Source of the DNA: Trichoplax sp. H2
Taxonomy: Eukaryota
Length of the DNA stretch: 64,000 bases
NCBI GenBank assembly: GCA_003344405.1
Contig: NOWV01000139.1
Span: 124,001 to 188,000, forward strand
Direction: 5' to 3'
A program made the translations under genes and the position numbers. This document shows positions 26,120 to 50,594 of this stretch, in pieces (position 1 is the first letter of the stretch; each line of letters begins with the position of its first letter). The notes under the pieces are model-generated. The model saw only the letters and a program-made list of their open reading frames with translations, did no database searches and was not told the DNA's origin.

Positions 26120-27018
26120 CTTCCGCTTCGAAAAATAGATAGATCGTCTGCAATGCGCTTATGCTCAGTGTACTGTATTTACAGCCTAGGATCTTGACTA
26201 CCGTACTGTGTATCAGTCACCAGAAGTACAGTACATTGTACACTGTACAGTGTACAGTACTGTAGAGTACAGTATTTTTCTTTTCGTTTACAGTACAGTA
26301 CAGTACTGGACATTAGTACGGTAGCGTACCGTCTGGACAGAGGGCTTTCGCTACATGCTTTAACCTTTAGTTTTGTACAGTACAGTACAGTACAGTACAC
26401 CGAGTTATCAAATACAACTACTGTACAGTGTACAGTATTTCTGCTACACAGTGTACAGTACTGTACTGTACAGTACAGTACATAAAAAGAAGGGTCGCTA
26501 CTGTACAGTACGGTACAGTACAGTACAGCTTACGCACGTGTCGTTAAAACAAACAAACAAACGAAGAACATTACTAATCTACTGTACAACAGTACACAAG
26601 TGTACAGTAGGTACGGTACATACTGTACAGTACAGTCAGTTACAGTACAGTACAGTATTGTACAGTACAGTGGTTTACAGTGTACTGTACTGTACTGTAC
26701 TGTAGTCTTAGACTGTAGTACAGTACAGTCAATTACATGCATACTGAACAATGCATTATGCATTCAGGGATCTGGTACAGGCTGCTTGATTATAATAATG
26801 AGCTAGCTAACCTATGCAGTACAGGATAGTATCTAAAGAAAGCCAGAAAAACAGATTGAGCAATCAGCCTCTGATACTGTACAGTACTGTACTGTACAGT
26901 ACACTGTACACTGTGTACACTGCTGTACTGTGTACAGTATTTTAGGATCACTTCTTTGCGGTAGTTTATTGTACCTGATATAAAAATATAAGTAAACAAT
27001 AAATAGCAAGCTTGTAAA
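26120..27018. promoter_or_regulatory. Bidirectional RPN2/NAPRT promoter region filled with a (CAGTA)n/(TACTG)n array (~26165-26945)
   Basis: Divergent ATGs at 26119 (-) and 27019 (+) with dense pentamer arrays between them. An ETS/YY1-like CGGAAGATGGC overlaps the RPN2 start. Confidence 0.8.
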
Positions 27019-30000
27019 ATGGCTACTAAGATGGTGCATCAAGGAATTGTTCAGCCACTGCTTACAGATTTATATCAGATCACAATGGCATACGCTTACT
27101 GGAAATTTAATAAACAAAGTCAGGCTGCAGTCTTTGAATTATTTTTTCGAAATAACCCATTTAAGGGAGGGTATACAATATTTGCTGGATTGAGTGATTG
27201 CATTGAGTTCGTTTCCAATTTTGCATACAGCAAATCAGGTATGGAGCACACAATTACTACTTGTAGAAGCTATCGCTATAGCTTTTAATAAGACTATGAA
27301 AGCAGACAGTTCCTGTTGAAACTCAGATAGTGTAAATGAATTAGAATATTATTACTTATTCTATCTACGTATTGCCAATGGTATTGCTAAGAACAATACA
27401 CTACTCGGACAGAGTTGCTGTAATCTAGTTTATTTTAATTAATCAACAATGTCTAATTCTGATGGTGCAATAATTACTGTAAATAAATAATAACATGCTT
27501 TAGAAAATAAATTCATCAAATTCTATCAGATATAGACTATGTAAAATCCATACTGCCATCCTCTGTTGAAGAAGAATTCTTTCATTTTCTTTCTGGCATA
27601 CACGGGGACCAGGTTACAATTGCAGCTGTCCCGGAGGGTTCAGTGGTATTTCCCAGAGTGCCTTTGCTAAGAGTTGAAGGTCCTTTAGCTAGTAAGCAAC
27701 TTTATCTGTTGTCCTTGATAATATCCTGAAATAAATTTTCGCGAAATAAAATATCGCAACGTCATTTGTGTTAGCTATTATCAAGAGCATGCAAATTTAG
27801 TGATGCAGTGGCTTTATTAGGTAGGAGTGCAATATACAGTACATCATTTAAACTGCTAACTACTGTTTGTCGCTTTAAATGAATGGTTGCATGCGTAAAA
27901 ATCGTAAACTTTCGTAGCTTAGGCATTTTAAACTGCAGTTACTGAGTACCACACTTGTTGCTAATAAAGAATATAACTTATTAAAAAATTGCAATGTTGA
28001 GTCGACTATGCCAAATTTATGTGCAGTCATGGAATACATTACCACAGTAGAAGAGGACCGTTTTCTAACGAGTAATTTATTATTGGTAGCTTTGAATTCA
28101 TTTATTAATGTTTACCATGACTACAGCATTTATCTTATTGCAAGGGTAGCTGTCCTACTTATGGAAACAACTTTACTTACCCTCGTGAATTATGCAAGGT
28201 AATGCCATCTCTTTTCTTTAATTTAAAAAGTCCTTGATATTAGGCCTCCTAAGAAAGATGAGCTAAAACTAAAAGCATACCATATTTCTGACATAGTTAC
28301 CATTGACTACTGTATCGTCCACAATCATTGGGCGCCATTTCAATTCTTACTAACTAAATTAAAATGACTATGTATTACAGCAGTGTAAATTTTAGAATAT
28401 GTAGGTGTGCTGGAGTTGCAGCTAGTAATATACTGTATACTGTAAGTTACGTTATATTCTTGTATTTGTGACATATCGTACGCGTTCGCAATTATGATAC
28501 TGCATAACACAGTAATATAAATAGTCAGCGTTAATCCAGTCCTGGTCCTAGTGGATTTGTGATGTAGTTATTAATTGGGAATATAAATAAGTGATGCTGC
28601 TAAGAATATAGTAATATGAATCATAGAGTTACGTACAATAAACAATGGACGGTCTATTTGATTATACGGAGACAGCCTTGTAACTACCAACGCAACGAGG
28701 TTTCGCCTAACAGCTGGAAATGATAAACCATTATTCGAATTTGGTTTACGCCGTGCTCAGGGACCGAATGGTGGCTTATCTGCTTCAAGATACTGCTATA
28801 TCGGAGGTTGTTAACATTAAATTGAATCATTTGCCAAATAGTGTGATACTGTCATGCTACTGTATATATTGAAACTCTAGTGTATTAGTTTGGCAACATA
28901 GGCATTGAGTAAAAGACGACAGACATTAGGTTAATAGCCTTTGATTAACTGCATATGCTGTATATCACAGATTATATATGCTATTTTCTAAATCAAGGTT
29001 TCAATGGTACAAGCAATGTTCTGGCCGGAAAACTTTTCTCAATCCCTGTTGTTGGTACTCATTCTCATGCTTTTGTTATGTCCTTTTCTGGCTTAACGGA
29101 TCTTTGTAAAACTCATGTGCAATATGCCACTGGTTCCGATAGCAAGTTGTTTGATTTAAAATGTGGCACACAAAAATGGCTTACTCAAATATCCCCAATG
29201 CTAGACGTAGCGGAGGATGAGATTATCGAAGGTGAATTGGCTGCATTCATTTCTATTGCAATTGCATTTCCTACAAACTTTTTGGCACTTGTTGATACTT
29301 ACGACGTAATCAGGTAAAAATATCTAAACCTCGAAGAGGTGTAACCGCAATATTCGTATTGTGCATGGTGTAGTTCACATTTCTATATTGAATCTGCTAT
29401 CAACGGATTGTATTTATTATATTGTATTTATTATATTTATTATTGGATCAAAATAACATATAATTTGATCGCCTTATCGAACTTAACTGATGTAGAAGTG
29501 GCATACCCTGTTTTTGCGCCGTAACACTTGCATTAGACGAGGCTGGATATCGTGCTAAAGGCATTCGATTAGATTCAGGTGACTTGGCTTATCTTTCAAG
29601 ACAGAGCAGGTGCCAATTTCAACTGTTAGCCGAAAGGTTAGTAAATTATTGCATTGATTTATCACTTCATACTATTGCTGTAGCTGTTGCTGTCAACAAA
29701 ATGGACAGTGGCTAGCGATTTTTAAGCTCTTGATTATCTGATATGAATGGTATATAGGTTAAATAAGCCATGGCTTTCATTATTAACCATAGTTGCTAGT
29801 AATGATATAAATGTGCGGACCATGAATTCCTTAAACCAGCAGGTCTTAATGACTAAATCTAGCTAATTTCAATAATAATAATACAATATTTATGTTAGAG
29901 ATGAATTATTTTTTTGTTACGGTATTCTTTTAGGGTCACCAGATTAATGCATACGGTATTGGAACTCATCTGGTCACTTGCCAAGAACAGCCTGCACTTG

Positions 30001-30761
30001 GCTGCGTATACAAGGTAGTTTATAAGGATCTTTTTTGTAGGTTATTTATAGTAAATGTATGGTTGAAGTTGATTGCTCGTCTAAGCATCACAATTTCATC
30101 TTGATATGAAGTTAGTCGAATTGGACGGTGTTGCTAAAATGAAGTTGACTCAAGAAAGATCTAAATTGTCCTTGCCTGCGAAAAAGAAAGTGTATAGATT
30201 ATTTGGAGAAAATGGTAGTAAAGATAGGATTAATGCTTGCATGATGTAGTTACTTGTTTGATCGGTCATGGGTTAGGATCTCATTGATGTGTAGTAGCTT
30301 AAACGCCGAATTTTTTATAATCTGAAGGTAGCCCATTGGCGGATCTCTTGCAGAAATATGATGAATCACCCCCACTTGTCGATCAGCAAGTACTTTGCTG
30401 TCATCCTTTTCAAGAATCAGAGCGTAAATACATCGTTCCATCTAGAGTAGAAGAGATGAACTGTAACTATTGGATAAAAGGAAAATCATGTAAAGAAATA
30501 CCCAAATTAGTAGATATTCGAAATTATTGTCAAAATCAAGTTAATAGCCTAAGAAGGGATCATCAATTACTTTCGAATTTGAATACGTATAAGGTATCAA
30601 AAATTTCTTCTTGCATCTTTGTACGTATTTGGACGTATGACATTACTGTAAGTCGTTTCTATGTACTGTAGGTTTTTGTTAGCGATGCCTTGTACCAGAC
30701 TATGCATAAACTTTGGGTTGGTGATACTACCATGAGGGAGCCTGGTTCTTATCATGAATGA
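27019..30761 (+). CDS. NAPRT: Nicotinate phosphoribosyltransferase
   Basis: 11 phase-consistent exons: 27019-27238, 27530-27691, 28150-28198, 28676-28806, 28998-29313, 29496-29636, 29758-29842, 29934-30014, 30112-30214, 30328-30593, 30672-30761. Motifs [60 protein letters not shown]. Confidence 0.96.
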
Positions 30762-30982
30762 ATGATCACGGCAATAGGATTTCAATGTCCTGACCCATCA
30801 AATTTTAATCATTTTAATTGGATTTGATACGTGCGTGTATGTTATTATAACATTGTTATCGTTTTTACGTATAAAGTACTGTATATGGTCTCACCAGGTT
30901 TAAATGATGAATGATTTAATTAAAACAATATGCATATAATATGATATCATTTATTTTCTACCTTTACTGATTGCATTAGTAA

Positions 30983-31143
30983 TTAATATACAGTACAGTA
31001 CTGTATAATTAGTAAATGCTACAGAAGCATTTCATTTATTTAATTTTTAGTCTTCGGAGTTATTTAATATACAGTACAGTTCTGTATAATTAGTAAATGC
31101 TACAGAAGTATTTCATTTATTTAATTTTAGTCTTAGGAGTTAT
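30983..31143. repeat. Tandem duplication of ~81 bp downstream of NAPRT
   Basis: ttaatatacagtacagt(a/t)ctgtataattagtaaatgctacagaag(c/t)atttcatttatttaat...tagtctt(c/a)ggagttat occurs twice (30983, 31064). Confidence 0.9.
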
Positions 31144-31624
31144 GGGCCACTTTAGCGTCCAAATACTCTGTATGATATTAAGAGGAGTAAACTGGCCAAG
31201 AATTCGTTATTCCAAAAAAAAAAAATAATATCAAGTAATAATAATATTTATTTATATATTTCAATGAACCAACTACGCTAGACTGAAAAATTGTGAGGTC
31301 ATATTGGAGACATTGAGAATAAGTTGTCGTTTTCTACAGTACTTGGAGAAGACATTATAACCTGTTGGAAGTGTTATCTACTCAACAGAAAGCTATAAAA
31401 ATGTGTTTATGCCTCGTTCAAGTGAGTTAGTATTGGTCACCTAAGTGAGCTCACTTAGGTGGACTCTATTTCTGTCGTTTGTAATTGCAAGCTTCGCTTT
31501 GTAGCAAATACGTATCTAATCTAATACGTATCTATCAGCTATCATCTGGTATACGCACGCGTACACCGAGTCTGCTAAGAGCTAATATTTGCCTGTAATA
31601 TTGCGGGTCATAAAGTGAACGCTT

Positions 31625-32165
31625 ACAGTACAGTACAGTACAGTACTTTATTTTTGACTGAGGTGTACTGTACACTGTAGAGTACTGTACTGTACTGTAC
31701 TGTAGTGTCCAGGTCACCATCGATACAGTAGAGAGAAAAGGCTTTTACAGTACAGTACTGTACAAAATCGTGAAAAAACGAATTAGAATCATTTATTTCA
31801 CCAAAATAAATTATACAGGCATGTTTATGAGAGCTTCTTCTTTCCACACATAGTAATTTTGATGAATTTCGTTGTCAAAATATCGCAAAACATTAGTGTT
31901 GATTTCTCTGAAACGAAAAGGATCACGCTGTACTGTACAGTACAGTACAGTACAGTACAGTACAGTATAGTACAGTACAGTAGTGTACAGTGTACAGTAC
32001 ACTGTACTGTACAGTACACGAATACCTCTGTTGGCGGTACGGTACGGTTGGGAACGGTTCTAGGAAGCAGCGGTTGGTGGTTACATACGATGCCTTTTTT
32101 TTCCATACTGTATCCCTATCATGACCGTACTGTACTGTACTCTACTCTATGGTACTCTGGCACTA
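31625..32165. repeat. (CAGTA)n/(TACTG)n arrays upstream of NKAIN
   Basis: Two blocks (~31625-31765 and ~31928-32150), 0.4-0.95 kb upstream of the NKAIN ATG. Confidence 0.9.
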
Positions 32166-32573
32166 CGGCATGAAGCATACTACTATGTTTTAATATGGTA
32201 GCATCAAAACAGTATACTATACCATTCAACACCTTGAAGCCTTACCATTCTTATATCCCATGTGGCAAATTGCCAGTCACTAACCCCTGTAAAATCTTCC
32301 ATAGTTGGCAGTCAAAGGTGAAGGCTTTTAACTCTGCCGACTGCGGCCATCTACGCGATCATTTACATATTTTGGATATATATTGTATTGCCAGTTGGTG
32401 ATCTAGATCGCTATCGTCGTTGTAAAATAGAAGGAAGAAAAAGGCAAATCAGATCGCCATTTTGTTACGGTGTTGATGATACTGTATTGACTGATTTTAG
32501 AACAGTATTGTAGGATAACTGAGTTGAATTCCACTTTAGAAAGCTTAATACGCGATCCAAAGTGACGGCAAAC

Positions 32574-35500
32574 ATGGCCTGTGGTACGCTAAGAACATGG
32601 ACCATGGCGATCCTCATTTTACAACTGGTATAGTATAAATTCATTTCTTATTTTTGAAAGACTTTTGATTGGATATTTTCCATTCTCCTTGCTTCTAATC
32701 ACAAAATTAATACTAATAAATGGATGATACTCTGTTATTTTACCATCATCTGGCGATAGAGAATGAATCGTCAATCTGCAAAAAAACTCCACTATACGTT
32801 CTACTTCATCAGTGACCTGAATCAATCCGTCGCATACGCATTGACGGTAGAATCAGTTAATTGAATTTTGTAAATAACTTTCCGCTGCTGGTTTTGAACA
32901 AAACTATCTTAATTAATAGAAAGTAAATTGTAGTGTATGGTAGACAGCAAAAAATACACCACATAGAGCAACATTATAGTGGATAATGATCCATTCTATC
33001 GACAGGCTTAGGTATTTATGTTAGAATTAATCTTTCAAGTTGTAACGACGACAACGCCATGTAAAATAGCACAGTAGCTGCAGGATGAATTCTACATTTG
33101 CAATGTTAATCACGATGTACAATATACAGTGGAGATAGATAGGATCTTACAAACACTTTAGCATTTTTCCATCGGAAGCAGTAATCGAAGATCCTGTCAT
33201 GACAAGTATTCGTATTAGTTCCAAATGGGAGTTGTATATTCAATAATTTCGTTTTCAATCGGTCATAAAATAAATTCCATCGGAGAAACCCTTTTTAAAC
33301 AAACAATACTCGATTCCAAGCCAGCCGGGCGTAATCAAATCAAGTGGCTGACTGTAAATTGATTGCAATCATAGCAGTAATCAAAAATACTATTTCGTCA
33401 CCAGTGAAAAATAAACTTTGTGCACCAACTGCTGTTATCACATGGAGTTAAAATATTTCCAACTTCAATTAATGGTGCCTTTCTATCTAAATTATTAATA
33501 GAGAGCCGGTTATTTGTCAGAAACCACTTACTGCAGTTGTGATTACAGTATACTGTACCTTGACAATTTTTATTAATCCGAGGGATCAATCCGCTCATTT
33601 TATTCTTCCTTTATCATTATCTCTTACTATTTCCTTCGTACTTATATTGAATGTACAAAACTTAAAGGAAGAGACGCAATAATATTTGTCGTATGCTGAA
33701 CCTTAATGCACATACTATTTTTTTAAAAAGAAGGTCGTAACATGATTTCAAGAAATCAATTACTGTAATGTGAAAAAGGCATTGACATTCTATCCTAACC
33801 GTAAGCTTATTTCCAATTTGTAAAAGCGCACATTCGAGGAAAGATCAGAACTGATTTCGGAAATCAATTTAAAATTGCGTGACAATATTATGGCCTTGTT
33901 GGCCTTTTCTTTCAAAATATTGCCCAACTGTAAGCTTATTGCAGGTTTTGCTTTGCGGTTTTTACACGAGTGTTAATGAATTTGCGGTACTAATTTATTA
34001 AAACTACGTTGGTTTAGAATTAGTTTAAAATGGCAGCAAGATTTTACTTTTAACTTTGCTCTATGTTGCACTACTTGCAGTACGGAGCGCCATACAAATC
34101 GTAATTCCGTAATATTTATTTTACGCGTATATCGCCGAACTTCAAATTGAGAAACTTTTCACTATTCCTACACTTTCTCTGCAGATTGTACTGACCGTAG
34201 GCGAACATCTTTCCGCATACAGTATTACGATGAAAGATATAGTCTTTCGTTAATTATAATTATATATACGATTCTGTTCAACTTAAAGCATGAATTTATA
34301 TGAACGGTAAGTACTTAGCTGTGTTTAGTTATACAAACAACCCACAATCGACATTCACCTATGATTTACGAGCATAACCATTTTCTTAACTTTATTTGGA
34401 GAAACGGAAATTTTGCTACATTCTGGTTAGATTGAACTAATTTTATGGCCGTCCGTATATAATGGCTAAACCTTACTGAAGTGATGCTACTATTTACAAT
34501 CAATTAATTAAATTGTACTGACTGCAAATAATCACTATTGGATAGGAAATACGCAACGAAAGATATATACAATAGCATGAGTTTAAAGCTGTAAATTGAT
34601 TTCCGATGTACTATTCTGATTGCGACGTTCATCGTCTTACTACTGTAATTTTCACAGTACTATATCTCGCTAATTTCGTCAAGTGTGCATAATTTAATTT
34701 AATTTATTTTGTGCAGTTAGTTAATTTAAAATTGTTCATTCTTGGTTATTTCACCTTATCTTACCAATAAATAATAGATCGAAAGTCTCATACTGTTTGC
34801 AAAGTTGTAAACTTCCTATTATACTTTTACAGCTAAAAAATGAATGGATGACATTTTGACTTTTATCGTTTTGAACAATTGTGAAATCTTTTTTATCGAT
34901 ATTTACGTAACATTTACTGCTTATTATACTGTATATGTCTACTATTACAGAAACTGATTCAAGTTGACGCTTGATTAAATTTTTAGATTTCTCTTCTGGA
35001 ACGTATAACATTCGACTTTATGGGTGCTGTCTGGGCTTTAATTATTGGTAACTTTGTGGCTATCCTTATTACCGTCGTCGGTACTTTCGGAGCTTACCAA
35101 TTCAGACCACGTTATTTGATTATGGTTAGTATTTTTGACATAGTTGGTATTCTCATAAAATAGTTACGGTATGGTCAACATTCGTAATGTTTGTACGGTA
35201 ATGTCATTGCTATTTCTTTCATATTTTTCACGTGTTTCTGTGCCTATATATTAATCCATGTTAAGGAATTCTTTTAGTTGTAACATACACAAATTACAAA
35301 TTTTTAAGCTTTGCATTCTTACATTAATTATGGCATTCAGTACATTCATGCATTAATGCTAATGAGCTATTAATTGCCTCGATTAAATTGATAATTGGAG
35401 CGTTTTAAAGACTGACTTGGGTGAAAAATTCTTTATAATATTTTAGTATCTAATTTGGTCCTTCGCGTGGATTGCTTGCAATGTTGCAGTGATGTTAACC

Positions 35501-38070: not shown

Positions 38071-39190
38071 CTAGTTTTCGGTGCTGACACCATATTTTTC
38101 TTTCATACGATCAAGCTCTGATCTCTTCTTCTCTTTATCCATTTTAGTGAAGGCCTTATTAGACTGATAATATAGAACGACCAAGTAACGATTACAAACG
38201 TTAAAGCCTGATAAATGTTCACATGCGTTCTTGGCATCAAAGATGTCTTCATAAACTACGAAAGCGGTACCTTTCGTATCGGCATTCGTTCCTCTAATAA
38301 ATCAAATATACAGTTCAGTGTACGATAGCAAAAAACTAGATTACTATACCAAGTGTTAGCAATATATTTATGGTAGTACAAGAAGAAATGAGTAACAATT
38401 ATCTAGCAACAACTAATTACAGTATTATCAATCGAACAATTGCCAGGCATAAAATTGATCCAATAGAAGTCAAACATGAATTTTAACCAACTAATTCACA
38501 AATAAGAACTTTATCTGACACATTGAGCATATATATATATAAAAATGCACGTACTACAGACTATCGTACGTATCGCTGACTCGGTGTGTCGGATAAAGTT
38601 CCGATCGTATATCCAATATCATTTAGCGTATTTAGAATATAATACGAGTATACAAACTGCTCACAGTCGGATTTGTCGAATAGCTCCGTATTTGCCAAAA
38701 ATGTCGTACAATTCTTCGCCAGTAATTTTATACGGTAAATTTCTGACGTACAGGATTCGATTGACTTCAGGTGGTAGTCGTATCTAATACGTATAAGAAA
38801 AACATGGAGTTAAACTTGTTATTTCAAAGTTGTAGATTAAGTTGGTTGAATGGATGGATCGTTCCATTTTGCTATGGACTAATAGTAGACTGAACTGAAT
38901 TCTGATGTGCGGAAGTGAGTTATCAATGATGCGATATTGAAGATTTGAAGTTTTGACGTTTACGCAGTGTAGTAAAAAGCTGCACGATCATGGCCAACAT
39001 TGATTGGATTTGATCCAAGAGATCAACTCCGCAATTGGGCATGGACAAGCCGTTACTATTTTTCGGTCATTATTCATCATTCCTAACGAACTTTCCAAGT
39101 ACTTTATGAACTCTAGACTGATTATTCATGAAAGGAAGATTGTTAATGTAGTAGAATTCAACTTACATTGGAACGCTTTTGCATCGCCAT
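38071..39190 (-). CDS. SF3B6: Splicing factor 3B subunit 6 (p14)
   Basis: Exons 39190-39167, 38783-38665, 38293-38071 give 121 aa: [91 protein letters not shown]... Confidence 0.97.
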
Positions 39191-40416
39191 GATCACACTT
39201 GGGAGTTTTTCTGACCACTGACGAGCAACCCTTACGCTGATGGCAGTAGTTACCACCACACGACAGCACAGTACTGTACAGTAGAGTGCGATAGTAGTGT
39301 ATCAAGCACTACCGTGAAGAAAGTGACCGAACTTTTTCTGCGCGTTTGTCTTGCTCAAAGGTAGTACAGAAACTGAAAACAGAGCTGCTGATTGCATACA
39401 GTACAGTAAAAGTCTGGCCAATGCTGTACTATACACTAGTGTACAGTACAGTAGAATGTAACGGACGCTGCATTAGTAACTACTGTACAGTACTGTACAG
39501 TACTTTGCGCAGCATCATTACCATACTGTACAGTGTAGACTGTAATACTGTACAGTACTGTACAGTACTGTACAGTACTGTTAAGTCGTGGGAAGACAAT
39601 GGTACGCATGTACTACTGTACAGTACTGTACTGTAAGTCGTGGGAAGACTACTGTACTGTACTTTGTCTGATACTGTATTGGTATGTACAGTACAGTACA
39701 GTACAGTACAGTACAGTACAGTACAGCACTGTACAGTGTACTGTAGAATGTGTCTCGTTTCCATTCTACAGTACTGTACTGTACTGTACTGTGTGTACCG
39801 TACAGTGTACGTGCGTGCACCTGCAAGGTGAACCAACCTTATTCACCGTAATCATCTGTCAGGGCATACGCATGCGTGGTCGGCAGCCGCAGTAGGAAGA
39901 TTGACGTAACTCGGAAAAAGTCTTTAGACAGTAGTACCTAACTTTTATTGCGTTGGTGCAACGTCTTACTCTTTGAATAATCGCATGAAATTGGAGATAC
40001 AGACTCCTAGAATACAGTAGTGTATCATTCTTTAAGCTAATTACGCTGAGTATCTGAGTAATCGGGGTTATTACCGTATTGCTGGGCCTACTGTACACTG
40101 TACAGTACTGTAGTCTGTAATCTATAGTACTGAGTACAGTACAGTACTGCGTTGAGAGCGACCAGACTACAGTACTATGCACCGTACAGCACAGTCGTAG
40201 TACTGTATGCAGACTGTACTGTACAGTGTACCTGCAAGGTGAACGTAATCCAACGTAATCATCCAACGTAATCATTTGTCAACATGCAGTAAGTAGTTCC
40301 GCTACTGCAGCAGTAGAGGGACGTAGGCAAGCAAAACTTGCAGTGCAGAACATTTCCTTTCTTCCTTAATCTTTCACTTGAAAATATTATTATTCATCGG
40401 TTGTTGAGATAGCCAA
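39191..40416. promoter_or_regulatory. Bidirectional SF3B6/HMGCL promoter region with CAGTA/TACTG arrays (~39265-40230)
   Basis: Divergent ATGs at 39190 (-) and 40417 (+), pentamer arrays, and an NRF1-like palindrome acgcatgcgt at ~39868. Confidence 0.8.
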
Positions 40417-43400
40417 ATGAATAGCAGATACTTATTAAAGAATCAGAGGATACGATCAGGCATTTGGAAGTGGATGAACAACAATGATACTTCCGTTCTT
40501 TGCAAGCGTACTCTCGCAAGTTATGAAAGTTCGGCAAGCAACTCAAAGGTAATGATGAAAATGACATCAACAAGTATGTGTTACCATAAGTGATCTAAGC
40601 AGCGAAATGGCATGCGTTAAAATGGAAAATTCCTACCCTTTGAACAGCATATAGATAATGCAGTATATCATTGACGTTTGGAAAGCAAATTATCGTTCGT
40701 CGCTTCAATAGAATTTGATCTAGTTTATATAACTCAGCTTGCAACAGTTGTCCAAACTGCGGTACGAATCATATGATTATTATACTGTACTGTGTACAGT
40801 ACAGTACTGTGCTGATCACTATCAATCACCATACCCTTCGGGGAAGATGGAATTATAGGATAGAAAGCCTACTTTGCGAGCAATTTGCTTCAGTCATAAC
40901 TCATGACCATCCAAATTAATGACATACTTAGTAGGGTTTTCCACACTGGCCATAGAATGATTGCCACTGTATTTTCGTTATACTGGATAGAATTATATCT
41001 GATTATGGTGCAATTGAAGTTATTAGCATACGGTACAACAATTTTTGAATGACATTGACTATATACAGTATGCACTCGATTACAATAAAGTACTTATAAC
41101 GTATCATGATACATAGTCTACTCTAGCATTAGTTAACATTCTACTGAATTGATAGGACATTAAAGTAATTACTAATTTCATATTTTTTTTATATTACGGT
41201 ATAATTATCACTCTAATAACAGTCCTCTGGCATGCCGGAATATGTCAAAATTGTTGAGGTTGGTCCGCGTGATGGATTACAAAATATAAAGGTAATATGA
41301 CATCAAAAACTTATTGGATCAGAAGTGAATTGGCTTTACAATGTTTTTCTGTTTATTAATTATAAAATGAGTCAAGTTTATACTATACGCTATGTCACAA
41401 AACTATTCGTATTTCACATAGTATTTGAGTCAGCCTTTTCTCAGTATAAGAGTACTTGTAAGTTTATTTGCTTCCTGGGTAGAATATTTTATCAACTACA
41501 GTATTTATTATCACCATGAATTTAAAGTAATGCTTATTAAATTATTCAATGATTTCTCTCGAACTGGAATGATCTAATCGATTGTGTCGGTAATATTATA
41601 GACATTTGTTCCAACCGATGTGAAGATCGAATTAATTAATCGTTTATCAAATACAGGATTACCTGTTGTAGAAGTTACTAGCTTTGTCTCTCCGAAATGG
41701 GTACCACAGGTGACCGATATTACTTAATTAACTGTTTTATCGACGGTATAACTATAAAGTATATCACGTAGGCACAAATGAATTATCTGATTCTTATTAT
41801 GGATATACTGTATATTATAAAGTATTAAGTTGTCTCTGTCTATACCGTACAGCTTTTTACCTCATTGACTGATTAAGATTTCAATTTTGTTTGACGTACT
41901 TGCAAATAGTTAAATATTATATTTGTTGTTACAGATGGCTGATAATGCTGATGTACTGAAAGGTATTGACAAAAATCCAAACGTATCTTACCCAGTTTTA
42001 ACCCCAAATTTGAAAGGATTTTCTTCAGCGGTAAGTTTAAGAAGGACAGTATCGTCTGAGTGCTTACAAACTAAATCAAATAATATAAACGTGCTATTTA
42101 ATTCTCTATTCCGTATTAGTCAGTATATGCTATGATACTGCTTATAAAACAAGTCTATTAAGTTGAGTTATAATCAAATTCATTACCTTGTCGTACTTAA
42201 CATATCCACAATTGTGGTTAGTAAGAATAATTTAGTGCTGTACCATTAAAGTTTCCAGTTACACCTATATGTAACCTGGAATCACTAAATAGCTTGGATT
42301 GATTATAATTTGATTAAAAATTAGATGGAAGCTGGTGCAAAAGAAGTTGCAATATTTGGCGCGGTGTCAGAAACTTTTACAAAGTAGGTAGCAATTCTAC
42401 TAAAATCATATTCCAAATGATACTTATTACAAAGTTATTCATCAACATTATAATAGCGTAATTGCGTAGATTTATAGTTAGTAATTACATGCTGTTACAA
42501 CAGTGTACTACAATCCATGCAGCGTTGCACAAGACTAGTACAAGAAATTCTAGTATATTATGATGAAGCATTCTTAATTATGACGGGGACTATAGTAGGT
42601 GGTTATGCCATCACATTTTTTATAAAAGCATAACATACAACTTCGGATATCAAATTTATATTAGACGCGCCACTTTTCATCTTGTACGATAGCAGATGAT
42701 GCAAAAACTTTGTCTTAGTTCATTGCATTGGAATGATATGAAACAGTCCTGTGTTATGGTCTTTCAATCTCCAAATCATATATAAAAATTTTTCTACACT
42801 AGGAAGAATGTCAACGCTACTATTAAGGACAGTCTCGAAAGTTTTAACAGCCTTTGTGATGAAGCAAAGAAATTAAACATCAAAATTAGAGGGTAAATTC
42901 GTAATCAAGATATCAATCATTTTGATTACCCTGATAAGCTTACATCAAGAATGAAAGTCCATTCAAAGTTGAAAATGTTAGCAATCAATGCCCATTGCAT
43001 TTTGTTCAATACTAGCTATATTTCGTGCGTCCTTGGATGCCCGTATGAAGGGAAAATTGAACCGACAGCAGTAGCAAATGTTAGATATACTTATATGAAA
43101 AAATCTAAGTAGCCGAATGTAGATATTCTTAAATGAATATTTTATTCCGTTAGCTGAATAAAAAACAGCGTTTCCATCGTTAATTTAGGTTGCCAAACAA
43201 TTGATTGATATGGGCTGTTATGAAATTTCTCTCGGCGATACCATCGGAGTTGGTACACCGGGTGAAAATTGCAAATGTGGAATTTTTTTAGTACCATATC
43301 ACGCAAAATAGTAGTATAAACCAATTTTTTTTACCCTTTAGGTTCTATGGCAGCAATGCTGAAAGAAGTGACGAAAGTTGTACCAGCATCTAAGTTAGCC

Positions 43401-44026
43401 GTACATTGCCACGATACATATGGACAAGCTTTAGCTAACATTTTAACAGCTATTCAGGTATGAATACTAAAAGAATAAAATTCTTTGCAAAGCAATATAT
43501 CCATCAAATTTTACAGTATACAGAATGTGTAAAGCAGCCGTCATTGTTTACGTTGTTATTTGCTACGATTGAATTTACAACGGTAAAATTACTGAACTTG
43601 TATGAATGTTCTTAAGCAGTAATTTCAAAATCTAAATTTCGATTTTAGATGGGAGTATCAGTCGTAGATGCGTCAGTAGCAGGATTAGGTGGCTGTCCTT
43701 ACGCTAAGGGCGCTTCGGGTAACGTTGCAACCGAAGATGTGGTTTACATGCTAAATGGATTAAATATAAAAACGGTAAATAAGCATAAATAGCTCAGCTA
43801 ATGTAGCTAAACTAGCAAAGCTAGTATCAATTTAAAGTATGGGCAATGATTGATTGAGAGTGCACGTTATGATGTCATTTGAAAATGAAAATATCGTATT
43901 AACTTTGAATTTACACAATTTCAGGGTGTAGATTTGAATAGCGTAATAGACTCCGCCAAATTTATTACAGATTTTATTGGAATGCGACCAGAATCGAAGG
44001 TGACAAGAGCAATAGCTAAATTATAA
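40417..44026 (+). CDS. HMGCL: Hydroxymethylglutaryl-CoA lyase
   Basis: 11 exons: 40417-40548, 41223-41291, 41602-41709, 41935-42030, 42325-42383, 42803-42892, 43016-43079, 43189-43261, 43342-43457, 43649-43774, 43925-44026. Motifs [65 protein letters not shown]; the protein ends AKL*. Confidence 0.96.
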
Positions 44027-44424
44027 TATAAATCACGTTTGAAAAAGCCAATCGGATAGATAGAGTGCTTTGAATGAATTATCAATTTGTTGCATTTAAT
44101 ATCCTCTATTTTGCATACAGTTTGTAATGTCTTTGCCGACTCGAAACCTTACCATACTAGATAATCATATTAAGCTTTGTGATTGGCTTATCAAAATCTT
44201 GCTTACAATAAGCAAGTAACGACAAATTAATTTTACGAATGAGCCATTCATAAGTTGTTAAATTCCAAAAGACTGATGATTGAAAACCTCAGCCAATTGG
44301 CCAAACTAATTAGTTTGTTGAATTATACCAGATTTTGCCCATGGACAATCGGTTGAATAAATATATCAATAAAAATTTTAGAATAGTAATTTATAGAACG
44401 TCTTGCTAGTTGCGTGACCACCAT

Positions 44425-47400
44425 TTAGGATGTAGGCTTGTTTTTAAGTTCTCTTTCTAATTCGGAATAGTGTTTCAGTAAAGCCACAACATGATGATTT
44501 CCCGATTTTTCAGCATCATCTATGGGAATATTCCCCCACCTAACGAGAAAGTTTTCATTGTAATGAAACAGCCTCCTCAGTACAATAAGCTATCCATAAA
44601 TATAAAGTATATTATTATACAATACACACTAAAATACTATAAAAATTGGCATTACCTGTCCTTTGGATTAGGATTAACTTTGCACACACTAAGGAGGTAT
44701 TTAACGACATTGTAATGACCTACGTAATCAATTGATTTTGACAGCATGAAATTAGACATGTTTGTCTACAGTATCGTAGAGTTAACATAGAGAAATTTTT
44801 ATCACCTTCAGCCGCTGCAACGTGTAAGGCTGTTCGCTGATCATAGTCAATCGCTTCCATATCACCGCATTGGCAATATCTATCATTTAATAATTATAGT
44901 ATCATAACCAAAATGATTGATTGAACGACTGGAAGTTAACTCGATTGTTAATGCGCTACATACCTTTTCAGAGCAGATAAATCGCCACTTGCTGCAGCAG
45001 TAAATATTCTACTGTATTTTAATCCATATACATATTCTGCAGACAATCTCGGATCATTTTTTTCTATGTTTATAAGGCTATCGTAATAATGGAAGTTGAA
45101 TTCTTCCACTAATCTCTGTAGAATGGAAGAAATTATCTACATTGCTCTTTAACGCTATGAGATAAGATTAACAACATTTGACTATACCTTACAAAATTTG
45201 ACTCCACGAACACTATTACTATGATTGTCCAGTAAGGGCGACCAAGTGCAAATTCCCATTACGTTAGGAATAATAATGAATATACCGCCACTAATTCCTG
45301 ATTTTGCTGGTAAACCAACCTACAGCAGATGAAAAATTTTATGCAAAACTTCCTATTTAGATTAGTTCTATCAAGAGTGCCTTTAGATCTTAGTTCATAT
45401 CGAAATTGTATGCACCTCAAATGCAAATCGTCCCGTATAGTCCGACATTCCACAAGAATTCATGACTGATAAGGTATCTCTTACAGCCGTTTCATTAAAC
45501 ACCTAGAGAGGGCAAATTTTATAAGATCAATAGCTACATAAGATACACAGTATAAACGGTAGATATTGTAAAGATTAAAAATAATTTAATTACTACCCTC
45601 TGTTCAGTAGTAGGACAAATTCCTCCATTAGCTAGAGTTGCAGCAATTACTGAAGCGGATTCGCACGTTACTTCAACTGAACAAAGTTGAAAGTACAGAT
45701 CTAATACTTCGTTTAATACTGTACCCGGAGGAAAAGCCTAACAACATTTAATTCCGAATGGTTGCTTGACTAAACCAGTATAAAATTTATTTTATTTGGC
45801 TAATAATATTAAAATTACAGAAAATTGCCATATACCTTCTTTCCAAACATATGATAAGCTAGTGCATAGTTTCGATGCCCGGTTTCCTTTTCGGACAGGA
45901 AACTGAAATTTCGTATATTATATTATTGTTTAAGAATGAATGTCATGCGCAAGATCATACGTCCCGACATAAATTTAACTTAAAGTAGGAATCGACATTG
46001 GATCTTGTATACCCTAATACAATTCCTGCTTACGTCGGTAAATCAAATCCTATATGCTCATTTCCAGCTGCTTGCTTGTATCGGTCTCTGACCTACCAGA
46101 TATGAAAACAATATATTAAAATTTTTGTTAGTTTTATCAACTTAATGACATATGATAGACATTAAATACTATGTTTATACAAAATGTAGCGTACGTGTGT
46201 AAATCTGTCAGCAGGTGGCATATTGGGCTAATTGAAGAAGAGGTGAAAGAGTGTTATTCGTATAATTTACTAATTTAAAATTATGATTGCGATTTTTACT
46301 ATTATTATTTATACGGATAGCTCAAAGACTATAAATTGTTACCTTCATTAATGCACATCCCATTATGCCACCTTGATTTATCAAAGCATTATACGGTTTA
46401 CCTACCAGAAATTGATATTAAATATTTAATTAAATACAGTAGAAGATGTGATAAATTTGCTTTAAGAGCAAAGGAGCTGCAATAAAGAGGAGCAATTTAC
46501 ATGTACGCTTGATGCAAACAATACAACTTACTAGTAAAGTTAAGAAATGACACATTCAGATGTGGGTTAAGCAATTTAACCGCAATGAACTTCTACACAT
46601 ACCCAGAAGTCTTTCATTGTGAGTTATTAATGAAACAAAGGTAAAATATAACATTGGCTACTACAATATAGGATGATCCAAAACAGACTGAATATCTACT
46701 ATTTTATTAAGTTCTACTTGTATGCAAAATGCAAGAAGAGTGCATCTTATGATCCCATATCTTACTATTTAGTAACTATAACGTGCAGTTTACTTTGCGT
46801 ACCTTCTAGATTCATGCTCATATCATGATATCTTCGACCGCTAGGTTCCTGGCCAATAAATTTATGTACCTGTTGTAAGAAACTGATATTACTGTCTTAA
46901 AGTGTTACAGTAAGTAACTGTCTTTGAATATATTGTATATCATATACGAAATACATTTAGTGTGTATTTATAAACGTAATTTATACCACATCTCCTCCAC
47001 GCTCATCTAATATCATTGCATAATTAACACATTTACAGCATGATTGAAGACACCATTTATCTTTGCAATCACCAATGGAAAACCTAAATCAATTTTTACA
47101 AGAGGCCTTATTTAAGAATTAAGATGAGATCTTACAGTAGTATTTGTTGACTTTATCATACAAGTATATATTTAAATTTTTAGTTAACGTAACAGACATA
47201 TTTCTTGTAAGAAATCTTTCGCTATTTATCTTAAGAAAAAGCATATTAGCTACAAAGTCATACTTCATTTAAAAAGATCTTAATGTTGACACTGTATATG
47301 AAATCTTGGTGATTACTAGAGGTAATGAAGAGACATACTAGGTTTGATGCAGGCATACTATGTATAGTTAAAATTTTATGTTACTAGTACCTTTGGCCAT

Positions 47401-49487
47401 CTACAGTACAGACTGCAACACCCCACTTATCAGGTGATAATCGTTCGAGTTGAGGAATGTAATCAGAAAGCTGAAATAGAGAAAAATAAATTATTCGAGT
47501 GAAGGTGTAATTATCATAAGCAGCCAAGTTTCTATTCTATTTTCGATGATATAGCATTTACAGCATTCCTACCTGACCATCATTTATTAATTTCGCTTCA
47601 TGATAGAAATCTTTTAATGTAGAAGTAAATACTTGAAAATCAGGAATGACAAAGTCGCCTTGCAATGCGCGTCGGAGCAAGAATGTGCATTTATTAATGC
47701 ATCTATGATTGATTAATAGTAAATACAAATTCGTAGAGTATCACTCAAAATAGAACAACACGATATTCTAATTTGATAACATATTAAAGCCACAGTATAT
47801 TATATATTTGAGTAGCAATAATCATTATATTACATTGAGATCTACTTTTGCATAAATGACTGGTTCATTTAGAAAAAGCATAATAAAGATTACTTGGAGT
47901 GAAAAAATTTATGAAATATTTTAATTCTTCACTACCAATTTAAATTAGCGATCCAGTGTAACAAATACGGGATACATCCATTATAATGCAGTATCTACTG
48001 CAATGTATATATTTATTTCTGTTCTCTAGATAATTTTCACTTGCACTGTAATACTCGTATGAATATTGAAAGCACAGTAACTACATAATATCGTCCAGAA
48101 ATCCTACGTACACTAATACTCCATACTTTTGCACATTCTGTTTCAAAGCTAAACACTACGAAACTGCAGGGTATACTTATGTCTTCCTTTCCATGTTACA
48201 GTAAAACAAAGATATTATATTATTATCATTAAGTTAGAATTACGAAATCACATGTGCTCGATCCACAACATTTAATGATTTTGATGCTTGATTGAGATCA
48301 TGCATTTTTATATAAAGTTAAAAATTATGTCGTCGCGAAGGATTTTTCACAGTCATTATATTTGATACTATCTCGCTCTGCATTCACAATGTCTAGAAAG
48401 GTAAATTTTTATTCTGGCTATAAAATTTAATTTATCAAATTATTACCTCATACGAGCATTAACATTATTGATAATAACACTGATTATTGTGAAATCAAAT
48501 AGCAGAATCGATGAATTCTGTAATACCTGAGCTTCAAATTCTCAAATTAAATATTTACATTTATTGATATGCTTGCTTAAGATGAAATTTCAATTATCTT
48601 GCTAGGTAGTTTATTCGGTATTCTTACTTTTTGAATGTCTCTATGTTTATAAACCCAGTACGATCTTCTGCCAAGTATGATTTCAGTGCTTTGATTACAG
48701 GTAGTAGGCGCTGATCATTTTCTCGTAATCCGCATTCCTTTATAATCTGAAGCCATAGAAACAATAATTGATCACATGTTTATAATAACTACGCCTATGC
48801 AATGATTGATTTTTCATTGATCTTTTACGAATACAATCATTGCGGGTTTCAGTATATTACTTATTGCAGGATTTAAGAACAAAACCTTTACATTACTTTA
48901 GTGATTAATAACGGAAATGGGATAGTAGGTAATTATTAGTAAAACACTGATAATTTATTCATTCATGTCCACTTGTACAGTCTATTTATTTTTCATTTGA
49001 GTTTACGGAGAGACCAAAAAGCATGAATGAATCAACAAGGTTCTACTCTGACGATTACTATTGGTCTTCTAGTCCTGTAACTCAATTTTGGTGTCGGTTA
49101 AACAATCTTGATCATAACTTAAGTTAATATTGAAAAATGATTGAAATATTTATCTCAATCATCATTAACATTTCCATCAGTTACTGTCATCCATGATCGT
49201 GTTGCAATGAAGCGAAACTTGTGGTGCATTTATCTTTGTAGTACAGTAATGTCAATGCCATAGACAAGAACTTAAAATGTTTTCTTGTTGTGTAGGAATT
49301 TTGTAACCACAATGCACCATTGCGCAATACAGTATATTTCATTTTACAGTATACTAGAAAAGAAAAGACTCCTTGGATTAAGAAGTACCTGTAAGAAATA
49401 GGGAACAGAAATCATCATTTCTCCGTCTCTTGTTTCGCTGTATATATGGAATATTAATTCCATACTTTCTTCTTCTTGCCGATCCAT
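44425..49487 (-). CDS. GLS: Glutaminase, KGA-type (EF-hand-like N-domain, serine-dependent glutaminase domain, C-terminal ankyrin repeats), divergent active site
   Basis: 17 phase-consistent exons from 49487-49389 to ~44539-44425. Motifs [85 protein letters not shown]. Confidence 0.93.
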
Positions 49488-50594
49488 GTTTTACAATTAA
49501 AGTATTATTATGATCAAGCCAGGAGGAAGAGGACAGTACTGCTTTTATACTGTACAGTACAGTTTACAGTGTACAGTACAGATCAGTACAGTACTGTACT
49601 GTAACAGAATACAGTACAGTACTGTACTGGTTTTATACTGTAGTTTATAGTGTACTGTACTGTACTGTACTGTACTGTACTGTACAGTGTACAGTACTGA
49701 TTTTATACTGTATTGTAGTCTACAGTGTACAGTACAGTACAGTACTGTACAGTACTGTACTGTAAGTTAACAAAATACTGTACTGTACAGTGTACAGTAC
49801 GTAATGCACTTAAGATACTGTACAGTACAGTACAGTACAGTAAAAGTACAGTATCTCATAATGGTGTACTGTACTGTACTGTACAGTACTATACAGTACA
49901 TTGAGTACAATCGTGTGTAAAAACTTTGAGTACACTGTACTGTACTGTACTGTACTGTATGTACTGTACAACTATAAATTCCAAATTCTCGGTAGCACAG
50001 TACAGTAAGTACTGTACCATTACTGTGACTCTGTGAGTGTGCAGTAAAGTAAGAAAAAAGGCTGACGCAATCAGACCATGTGTCGCAGTCATATCGAGCA
50101 CGCCCAGACACACTGTACATTGTACAATACCGTACTGTACTGTACAGTATAGTGTACAGTACATACAGTACTGTACAGTACAGTACTGTATTAATGAAAA
50201 CTACAGTACTCTAAATTGCTAAAACCGGAAATCACAGTACTGTACTGTACAGTACATCATCTTGGATACTGTACTGCATGCTAGCGTACTGTACACTGTA
50301 CAGTGTACAGTGCTCGTGAACCACGACAACATTGACCAAGCCGCGAAAGAAGAGCGGGTACCACATTTGTATTTTCCTATGTGCAATGCATTTCCCGTGC
50401 TTATGCTTCGTCGGCTTGTTGAAGATTTTCACAAATAAGCAACAGTGAATTTAAAGAGTAACGCCTCGCCTTATCATTTCAATCATTCAGGATATCTTAA
50501 TCTCCGAGTGGCGTTCAACTACGGCTACTATTTTCTTCGCTCAGTGATTGTGCGATACGATCTTTCGGGAATGTTGATTGTCGCCACCTGAAGC
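49488..50594. promoter_or_regulatory. Bidirectional GLS/PHF20 promoter region with CAGTA/TACTG arrays (~49533-50310)
   Basis: Divergent ATGs at 49487 (-) and 50595 (+), dense pentamer arrays, and an ETS-like accggaaat at ~50224. Confidence 0.78.

What the first reader, a model, noticed from the sequence alone, without database searches (positions are those of the whole stretch)
26120..50594. Self-complementary CAGTA/TACTG microsatellite fields define every bidirectional promoter
Seen: RPN2/NAPRT (899 bp between ATGs), SF3B6/HMGCL (1226 bp) and GLS/PHF20 (1107 bp) are head-to-head, and each gap is filled with pentamer arrays. The arrays flip orientation at palindromic CAGTACTG/CTGTACAG junctions; NKAIN has one upstream too. 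Dense arrays are absent from exons and convergent 3' spacers. Inference: a repeat-based housekeeping promoter code (CpG-island analogue) that may bind a dedicated factor, exclude nucleosomes, form cruciforms or anchor promoter contacts.
Basis: partly seen in the sequence, partly recalled or inferred. Interest (0 to 1): 0.75.

Follow-up and report, generated by a model that had tools for sequence, protein, structure and literature searches.

The report
Known Trichoplax ACAGT promoter microsatellite fields
The dense GTACA/GTACT repeat fields between head-to-head genes are real, but they are the ACAGT microsatellite that was reported in 2010 as unusually abundant upstream of Trichoplax genes, so this is largely a rediscovery with a few new details.

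Summary
Four dense 0.5-1 kb fields of period-5 repeats lie at 26169-26939, 31624-32158, 39268-40227 and 49533-50311. A 24-nt (GTACW)n pattern matches 20 times in the window and 0 times in 100 shuffles. In the mapped 36.6 kb, 588 of 624 array 10-mers lie in four 5' gaps that make up 14% of the sequence. All 3 head-to-head gene pairs mapped there carry a field. So does one tandem, unidirectional promoter (NKAIN).

The window is Trichoplax adhaerens. The main claim is already in print. Wang et al. 2010 (PMC2871265) reported (ACAGT)n as the dominant microsatellite, with 54% of copies within 1 kb upstream of genes, and proposed a transcription-factor-site role. A 2026 neural-network study links repeating ACAGT to chromatin insulation.

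Three points appear to be new:
- The unit is a palindromic GTAC core on a 5-bp lattice with an A/T spacer (149 A/T against 7 G/C).
- The "orientation flips" are spacer switches, 32% here against 3.7% in such arrays from other sources.
- The fields share no transposon backbone.

Whether the fields bind a factor, exclude nucleosomes or form cruciforms was not tested here. "Every bidirectional promoter" rests on 3 of 3 cases.

The parts
26169..26939 (.). Field F1: 13 short GTACW runs between RPN2 (ATG 26119, minus) and NAPRT (ATG 27020, plus)
   Evidence: It holds 129 array 10-mers. It starts 50 bp from the RPN2 ATG and ends 81 bp from the NAPRT ATG.
31624..32158 (.). Field F2: 9 runs upstream of NKAIN, in a tandem arrangement downstream of the NAPRT 3' end
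   Evidence: NKAIN exon 1 is fixed by the RNA joint 32626 to 34986, and RNA contigs cover 32423-32626.
39268..40227 (.). Field F3: 11 runs between SF3B6 (ATG 39190, minus) and HMGCL (ATG 40417, plus). It includes a 32-bp perfect palindrome at 39546-39577.
   Evidence: RNA joints 38293/38665 and 40546/41221.
49533..50311 (.). Field F4, the densest: 19 runs between GLS (ATG 49487, minus) and a Tudor/PHD gene (ATG 50596, plus). It has higher-order 38-75 bp repeats.
   Evidence: It holds 205 array 10-mers. Folded as single-stranded DNA, z = -14.9.
24492..24650 (.). Degenerate mini-array inside RPN2 intron 1
30983..31143 (.). 81-bp tandem duplication. Each copy carries a 21-bp near-palindromic mini-array (TATACAGTACAGTACTGTATA). 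It lies downstream of NAPRT.
40783..40812 (.). Mini-array in HMGCL intron 1
51610..51790 (.). Small array with GTACG variants, in an intron of the Tudor/PHD gene about 1.1 kb downstream of its ATG
32033..32060 (+). The only ACGG/CCGT cluster in the window (GGCGGTACGGTACGGTTGGGAACGGTT), at the right edge of F2
   Evidence: 1 cluster of at least 3 sites within 30 bp in 64 kb. Also.
26104..26119 (-). RPN2 exon 1 (encodes MAATR plus one base), followed by a GT donor and a roughly 2.2-kb intron
   Evidence: The protein is 100% identical to the annotated T. adhaerens RPN2, which starts MAATRGICL.
40417..40546 (+). HMGCL exon 1
   Evidence: for the sequence. RNA joint 40546 to 41221 in two runs.
32575..32626 (+). 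Coding part of NKAIN exon 1
   Evidence: RNA joint 32626 to 34986 in two runs. Pfam NKAIN hits on downstream exons.

Best explanation
The fields are clusters of the (ACAGT)n microsatellite that is characteristic of the Trichoplax adhaerens genome. They sit in the promoter regions of broadly expressed genes. They are better described as palindromic GTAC cores on a 5-bp lattice separated by a single A or T.

Because the core is its own reverse complement, switching the spacer between A and T "flips" the repeat without moving any core. The lattice therefore reads the same on both strands.

Most likely (inferred, not shown), each field acts as a cluster of many identical binding sites for an unidentified sequence-specific protein, probably a dimer reading a GTAC-centred palindrome. 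That protein would keep the promoter open and insulated, and it would work equally in both directions. This would explain why the fields fill head-to-head gaps.

Shown here or in print: what the repeat is, how strongly it is enriched, where it lies relative to 5' ends, its strand symmetry, and a published in-silico link to insulation. Inferred: protein binding and any effect on chromatin or transcription.
For: Identity and enrichment:
- establish the repeat and its enrichment.
- The organism is T. adhaerens.

Promoter location:
- 588 of 624 array 10-mers in the mapped 36.6 kb lie in four 5' gaps that make up 14% of it.
- The fields start 46-78 bp from the ATGs of RPN2, GLS and SF3B6.
- Introns, which make up most of the region, hold only 36 array 10-mers.

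Genome-wide abundance:
- In a DNA run, summed word depth is about 33 over single-copy sequence but 739 to 10,471 in the bins that hold array fields. Array words therefore occur at very many loci.
- Wang et al. 2010 (Findings section read): ACAGT makes up 78% of 7,233 pentanucleotide repeats; 54% lie within 1 kb upstream of genes; ribosomal-protein genes are enriched.

Link to chromatin:
- The Chimaera paper (passages read) reports repeating ACAGT among motifs found for T. adhaerens chromatin-contact patterns. Its authors say in-silico mutagenesis confirmed that the found motifs affect the predictions.

Constraint-like features:
- Spacers on the lattice are A 87, T 62, G 5, C 2, and there are 7 core mismatches in 223 units.
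- A-to-T spacer switches make up 23 of 73 adjacent pairs here, against 92 of 2,505 in arrays from other sources.
- Each field is 9-19 short runs of 2-8 cores, not one long tract.
- The dominant A-or-T orientation shows no consistent relation to the direction of the nearby gene. That fits a strand-symmetric reader.
Against: - No binding, accessibility or expression data were examined here.
- The insulation link is a neural-network attribution reported in a single sentence.
- Microsatellites grow by slippage, and their purity may simply mean they are young.
- The second organism label that holds the same arrays at the same places differs by only about 0.5%, so conservation there says nothing about constraint.
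- The motif published for loop anchors by Kim et al. 2025 is, according to the Chimaera authors, an ACGG-type motif and not ACAGT. Only one such cluster lies in this window.
- Transcription start sites could not be placed, because RNA contigs break at the repeats.
- The external arrays used for comparison were chosen with the same 24-nt pattern and come from mixed, unidentified organisms.
Confidence: 0.5

Rival explanations
1. The fields are a mutational by-product. Self-complementary pentamer repeats would expand by slippage and hairpin-mediated template switching specifically in the nucleosome-free, negatively supercoiled DNA between or upstream of active promoters. They would be tolerated there without doing anything.
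For: - The arrays show higher-order local duplications: periods of 15-81 bp and a roughly 60-bp direct repeat inside F3.
- The cores are very pure, which fits recent expansion.
- A/T spacer switches far outnumber G/C spacers. Fold-back copying would produce that pattern without selection.
- The fields are strongly self-complementary (z = -14.9 against -1.7 for a control intron).
- (ACAGT)n tracts also occur in unrelated sequence collections.
Against: - Introns and 3' spacers in the same region are almost free of arrays.
- Wang et al. 2010 report that this one motif dominates the microsatellites of a whole genome and is enriched at particular gene classes.
- The fields are many short runs rather than long tracts.
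- The contact-map model assigns the motif an effect.
Confidence: 0.28
2. The repeats are arrays of initiator-like sites. Each ACAGT unit offers a CA+1GT start-site core, an initiator consensus recalled from memory and not checked with any tool here. A two-orientation field would then be a broad, bidirectional platform for dispersed transcription initiation.
For: - The fields end only 46-81 bp from four of the ATGs. Start sites must therefore lie at or inside the field edges, or the 5' UTRs are very short.
- Wang et al. 2010 found ACAGT to be the most abundant pentanucleotide motif in ESTs as well.
- RNA-run contigs from other loci carry array sequence (128 of 203 laid X19 contigs fit only partly).
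Against: - Orientation does not point toward the nearby gene. In F1 the A-type runs lie on the RPN2 side and the T-type runs on the NAPRT side, which is the opposite of what this model predicts.
- For NKAIN, HMGCL and the PHD gene, the transcribed or coding start lies 190-434 bp beyond the last run.
- RNA-library contigs may include DNA.
Confidence: 0.12
3. The fields are remnants or insertions of a DNA transposon, as in the Mutator-type terminal inverted repeats that Kim et al. 2025 proposed for placozoan hub promoters.
For: - Kim et al. 2025 (passages read) report Mutator annotations enriched at hub promoters.
- The fields contain inverted repeats.
- A crude search for 9-11 bp direct repeats flanking 12-bp inverted ends finds 71 candidates, all of which start inside the four fields.
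Against: - With the arrays masked, the gaps share no sequence with each other.
- No transposase domain was found in any ORF scanned.
- The inverted-end and direct-repeat configurations are made of the repeat itself, so they follow trivially from a self-complementary microsatellite.
- Wang et al. 2010 found transposons to be 0.13% of the genome, with 6 MuDR fragments and one miniature-element family of about 20 copies.
Confidence: 0.05
4. The fields act through DNA structure: cruciform or hairpin extrusion at the palindromes marks or opens the promoters.
For: - 44 of the 60 palindromes with arms of at least 8 bp lie in the fields.
- The single-strand folding energy of F4 is far below that of shuffled sequence.
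Against: - The longest perfect palindromes are only 32 bp, with 16-bp arms.
- Long single-orientation runs, such as the A7 run at 39686-39724, cannot extrude on their own.
- No in-vivo structural evidence exists.
Confidence: 0.05

Closest known systems
(ACAGT)n microsatellite of Trichoplax adhaerens (Wang, Zhang, Meyer and Bao 2010, Biol Direct 5:18, PMC2871265)
   Same: It is the same organism, the same pentamer and the same upstream-of-gene location. The authors also suggested that the repeat could be a transcription factor binding site.
   Different: That paper counts perfect repeats genome-wide. In the sections read, it does not describe the GTAC-core/W-spacer lattice, the mixing of orientations, the clustering into 0.5-1 kb fields or the head-to-head gene context. 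Its additional files were not opened.
Repeating ACAGT motif found by the Chimaera neural network in T. adhaerens Micro-C maps (NAR 2026, PMC12817080)
   Same: It is the same motif, tied to chromatin insulation, which in that model occurs at gene starts.
   Different: It is mentioned in one sentence and a figure table, with no anatomy, gene context or link to the 2010 paper in the passages read.
Placozoan group-1 promoter hubs and their loop-anchor motif (Kim et al. 2025, Nature, PMC12221973)
   Same: Both concern housekeeping-type, highly expressed genes grouped along the genome, with a sequence motif at promoters that a hypothetical architectural protein might read.
   Different: Their motif appears only as a figure logo. 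The Chimaera authors equate it with an ACGG repeat that belongs to a transposon, not with ACAGT. The window has only one ACGG cluster. Kim et al. do not mention microsatellites or tandem repeats. Whether the genes here are group-1 genes is unknown.
GA-repeat promoters bound by GAGA factor, and BEAF-32 CGATA clusters at head-to-head housekeeping promoters, in Drosophila (recalled, not checked with a tool)
   Same: In both, short repeated motifs clustered in promoters are read by a dedicated protein that opens chromatin, insulates and tethers promoters.
   Different: The motif and lineage are different, and no binding protein is known here. This is an analogy of mechanism only.
Vertebrate CpG islands
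   Same: Both are a compositional or sequence hallmark of broadly active, often bidirectional promoters.
   Different: The gaps are not enriched for CpG (observed/expected 0.56-0.88 against 0.94 elsewhere). The signal here is a specific repeat, not base composition.

Membership tests
T. adhaerens (ACAGT)n microsatellite (Wang et al. 2010) | Perfect tandem repeats of the ACAGT unit longer than 12 bp | tested here: met
   There are 31 runs of at least 3 exact GTAC cores at 5-bp spacing and 20 matches to a 24-nt pattern.
T. adhaerens (ACAGT)n microsatellite (Wang et al. 2010) | The organism is Trichoplax adhaerens | tested here: met
   An RPN2 exon is 100% identical to TRIADDRAFT_64329, and the annotated N-terminus maps onto the window.
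T. adhaerens (ACAGT)n microsatellite (Wang et al. 2010) | Located within about 1 kb upstream of a gene | tested here: met
   All four fields lie within 46-434 bp of seven mapped ATGs.
Mutator-type transposon with terminal inverted repeats (Kim et al. 2025) | Copies share a family-specific sequence beyond simple repeats | tested here: not met
   After masking the arrays, blastn-short found no match between any of the gaps. The only match was the local 81-bp tandem duplication.
Mutator-type transposon with terminal inverted repeats (Kim et al. 2025) | Terminal inverted repeats flanked by 9-11 bp target-site duplications | tested here: inconclusive
   71 such configurations were found, all starting inside the fields, but every one is built from the repeat itself. 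This was a crude emulation, not a run of EDTA.
Mutator-type transposon with terminal inverted repeats (Kim et al. 2025) | Transposase coding capacity, in autonomous copies | tested here: not met
   No transposase family appeared among the Pfam hits for 524 ORF translations.
Loop-anchor motif of placozoan promoter hubs (Kim et al. 2025) | Match to the published motif logo | not testable with these tools
   The logo exists only in figures. It was not found in the text or in the three readable supplements. By the Chimaera authors' description (ACGG), only one cluster exists in the window, at 32039-32054.
Loop-anchor motif of placozoan promoter hubs (Kim et al. 2025) | Overlap with Micro-C loop anchors and with ATAC and H3K4me3 peaks | not testable with these tools
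CpG island | Raised CpG observed/expected ratio and GC content relative to the genome | tested here: not met
   CpG observed/expected is 0.56-0.88 in the gaps against 0.94 in the rest. GC is 0.39-0.43 against 0.33, which is explained by the 40% GC of the repeat itself.

The most novel reading that the evidence does not exclude
The strand-symmetric GTAC lattice, not a transposon, is the real sequence determinant of placozoan housekeeping promoter hubs. A dimeric architectural protein would read GTAC-centred palindromes in these fields to open, insulate and pair promoters. The "Mutator terminal inverted repeat" annotation at those promoters would then be largely an artefact of structure-based transposon callers run on self-complementary microsatellite fields. 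This reading would reconcile the 2010 finding that transposons are almost absent with the 2025 finding that they are frequent at hub promoters.
Probability: 0.2. Interest if true: 0.7.

Novelty: already known. Interest (0 to 1): 0.33.

Why it matters
Placozoans are a key lineage for understanding how animal gene regulation began. About a third of their genes sit in promoter hubs whose sequence basis is unsettled. The repeat seen here has been known since 2010 to be abundant upstream of genes. It was picked out again in 2026 by a model of chromatin contacts. The 2025 hub paper mentions neither microsatellites nor tandem repeats in its main text.

Three descriptions may concern one element: a lineage-specific promoter microsatellite, an insulation motif and a supposed transposon end. 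Recognising this gives a concrete object to test, namely a GTAC lattice with a 5-bp period and an A/T spacer, and a concrete protein to look for. As a finding in itself it is a rediscovery.

Tried and rejected
- **Whole-genome test:** not possible, because no genome is held for this window.
- **Earlier scan findings:** none by place, words or sequence.
- **Motif letters in Kim et al. 2025:** absent from the text and from the three readable spreadsheets; the PDF supplements cannot be read.
- **Mapping genes in 1-20.8 kb:** Pfam found only two EamA exons. Two protein searches on the longest ORFs found nothing. That part cannot test the claim of "every promoter".
- **Locating transcription start sites from RNA runs:** failed. 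All the runs are kept as contigs, which break at the repeats.
- **Array conservation between the two organism labels:** uninformative, since they differ by about 0.5%.
- **Collection scans for the 24-nt pattern:** these returned 198 loci from mixed sources, none shown to be placozoan. I used them only as a rough comparison for orientation switching. They were selected by the same pattern, so their run lengths are not a fair control.
- **Orientation against gene direction:** no consistent relation.
- **Non-coding RNA genes in the gaps:** none. The only Rfam hit is an intronic snoRNA elsewhere, and there are no tRNAs.
- **Literature searches:**. Only searches yielded relevant papers.
Full report
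**What is there.**
Tandem Repeats Finder shows period-5 arrays of GTACA/TACTG clustered at four places: 26225-26936, 31624-32158, 39481-40147 and 49548-50312. Small arrays lie at 51718-51769 and 60823-60842, and an 81-bp duplication carrying a mini-array lies at 30983-31143. Reading the sequence confirms this.
- A 24-nt pattern, GTAC followed by A or T and repeated, matches 20 times in the window. None of 100 dinucleotide-preserving shuffles had a match.
- 654 ten-mers belong to this repeat language, almost all in those clusters.
- GTAC occurs at 72.6 per kb in the four fields against 4.3 per kb outside and 3.1 per kb expected from composition. The commonest core-to-core distance is 5, followed by 7 and 10.

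**Organism and gene map.**
An RPN2 exon is 100% identical to Trichoplax adhaerens TRIADDRAFT_64329. That protein begins MAATRGICL. This fits a 16-nt first exon with its ATG at 26119 on the minus strand, a GT donor, and a roughly 2.2-kb intron before the exon at about 23.9 kb.

Pfam hits on ORF translations give the following:
- RPN2 on the minus strand, 20889-23917
- NAPRT on the plus strand, 27020-30668
- NKAIN on the plus strand
- an RRM protein on the minus strand, which I take to be SF3B6 from recalled sequence similarity
- an HMGL-like gene on the plus strand
- glutaminase on the minus strand
- a Tudor/PHD gene on the plus strand
- an MFS transporter on the minus strand

RNA-run contigs give splice joints that fix several exons. 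NKAIN exon 1 ends at 32626. An SF3B6 intron spans 38294-38664. HMGCL exon 1 ends at 40546. Several GLS introns are also fixed.

The 1-20.8 kb part could not be mapped. It gave only two EamA exons, and two protein searches found nothing.

**Position relative to genes.**
In the mapped 20.8-57.4 kb, 588 of 624 array ten-mers lie in four 5' gaps totalling 5,140 bp, which is 14% of the region. The other 36 lie in RPN2 intron 1, HMGCL intron 1 and introns of the PHD gene, with one in GLS. The two convergent 3' spacers hold 8 and 0 masked bases.

The fields begin 50, 78 and 46 bp from the ATGs of RPN2, SF3B6 and GLS. They end 81, 190, 285 and 434 bp before the ATGs of NAPRT, HMGCL, the PHD gene and NKAIN.

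All three head-to-head pairs carry a field. The NKAIN field lies between the NAPRT 3' end and the NKAIN 5' end, so a bidirectional arrangement is not required. The MFS gene has only mini-arrays in introns, and no dense field near its upstream exons around 61.5 kb.

**Anatomy.**
Each field is 9-19 short runs of 2-8 cores separated by unique sequence. It is not one long tract.
- In perfect runs the spacer letters are A 58, T 44 and G 2, and 23 of 73 adjacent spacers switch between A and T.
- On a lattice that allows one core mismatch, there are 223 units with 7 core mismatches. The spacers are A 87, T 62, G 5 and C 2.

The flip creates the CAGTACTG and CTGTACAG palindromes without moving any core.

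Point mutation alone would be expected to give more A-to-G than A-to-T changes (general knowledge). The excess of A/T over G/C spacers therefore points either to selection for an A/T spacer or to fold-back copying.

For comparison, I scanned two public collections with the same 24-nt pattern and obtained 198 loci. In these, spacer switches are 92 of 2,505 (3.7%), and most arrays have a single orientation. These loci come from mixed, unidentified organisms and were selected by the pattern itself, so the comparison is rough.

Orientation shows no consistent relation to the direction of the neighbouring gene.

**Self-complementarity.**
The longest perfect palindromes are 32 bp, at 39546-39577 and 49733-49764. 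44 of the 60 palindromes with arms of at least 8 bp lie in the fields. Folded as single-stranded DNA, field F4 reaches -196.8 kcal/mol against -124.3 +/- 4.9 for shuffles (z = -14.9). A control intron gives z = -1.7. This confirms "self-complementary" but does not show cruciforms in vivo.

**Abundance elsewhere in the genome.**
In a DNA run, summed word depth is about 33 over single-copy sequence. In the bins that hold array fields it is 739 to 10,471, with 5,650 contigs laid, and the DNA contigs break at the array edges. The array words therefore occur at very many loci. RNA-run contigs from other loci also carry array sequence, but such libraries can contain DNA.

**Not a transposon copy, not a CpG island.**
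With the arrays masked, the gaps share no sequence with each other, and no transposase domain was found. A crude search for 9-11 bp direct repeats flanking 12-bp inverted ends returns 71 candidates, all starting inside the four fields and all made of the repeat itself. A structure-based transposon caller could therefore be misled here; I did not run EDTA. CpG observed/expected in the gaps is 0.56-0.88 against 0.94 elsewhere.

**What is already in print.**
- **Wang, Zhang, Meyer and Bao 2010** (Biol Direct 5:18, PMC2871265; abstract, Findings and reviewer section read). Pentanucleotides make up 61.8% of 11,697 T. adhaerens microsatellites, and 78% of these are ACAGT. 54% lie within 1 kb and 85% within 5 kb upstream of genes. 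Associated genes are enriched for translation and protein modification. The authors suggest the motif may be a transcription factor binding site. They also report transposons at 0.13% of the genome, with 6 MuDR fragments and one small miniature-element family.
- **The Chimaera paper** (NAR 2026, PMC12817080; passages read). It states that "repeating motifs ACGG and ACAGT" were found for T. adhaerens. It says the former belongs to a transposon already tied to insulation by Kim et al.
- **Kim et al. 2025** (Nature, PMC12221973; passages read). About 3,000 housekeeping-type genes form promoter hubs, with a loop-anchor motif said to lie in Mutator terminal inverted repeats. The logo is only in figures. 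The paper mentions no microsatellite or tandem repeat and does not cite the 2010 paper.
- The window holds one ACGG cluster, at 32039-32054 on the edge of F2.
- Other searches found nothing further.

**Reading.**
The identity and the promoter association are secure and already known. The mechanism is open.

I favour a cluster of binding sites for an unidentified, probably dimeric, protein that reads the GTAC-centred lattice and keeps promoters open and insulated in both directions. The reasons are the sharp restriction to 5' gaps despite abundant intronic DNA, the A/T-only spacer, the many-short-runs architecture and the contact-map model result.

The main rival is a promoter-specific mutational by-product of a self-complementary repeat. 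An initiator-array role and a purely structural role are less likely. A transposon origin is the least supported.

**Verdict.**
As a discovery it is a rediscovery of a 2010 result.

The useful additions are the lattice description, the spacer statistics, the head-to-head context, and the suggestion that three published descriptions may concern one element. One of those descriptions may rest on a transposon mis-annotation. That suggestion is untested.

Noticed in passing
17928-18227, 18587-18886, 19861-20160; 19646-19840 and 20905-21099; N runs at 18567-18586 and 19841-19860: 100% identical blocks start right after each 20-N gap and duplicate RPN2 3' exons (Ribophorin_II_3rd hits at both 19648-19812 and 20889-21071). 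This looks like redundancy from assembly gaps, not a real duplication.
   Followed up: partly
22666-22907 (-): A SNORA73 H/ACA snoRNA (86 bits, E = 3.5e-19) lies inside an RPN2 intron.
   Followed up: no
39815-39875 and 40220-40290: A roughly 60-bp direct repeat (…CCTGCAAGGTGAAC…CGTAATCATYTGTCA…) occurs inside field F3, each copy just after an array run. The second copy lies immediately upstream of the HMGCL transcribed region and may be a duplicated promoter-proximal module.
   Followed up: partly
31438-31461: A 24-bp perfect palindrome that is not part of an array, CACCTAAGTGAGCTCACTTAGGTG, lies about 170 bp upstream of field F2.
   Followed up: no
32549: A 20-nt insertion relative to the window lies in the NKAIN 5' UTR. 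It is present in one RNA-run contig and one DNA-run contig, so it is probably a strain or allele difference.
   Followed up: no
L132/L133, L166, L173 and other loci from genome contigs: Contigs filed under bacterial MAG names (for example Rubritalea sp. and Metamycoplasmataceae) carry long single-orientation (GTACA)n/(GTACT)n tracts of up to 36 units. Whether these contigs are really bacterial was not checked.
   Followed up: no
26508, 26611, 32037, 39795, 51683, 51747: GTACGGTAC/GTACCGTAC variants with a G or C spacer occur 6 times against 0.12 expected. All lie in or next to array fields and resemble the ACGG-type motif named in the literature.
   Followed up: partly
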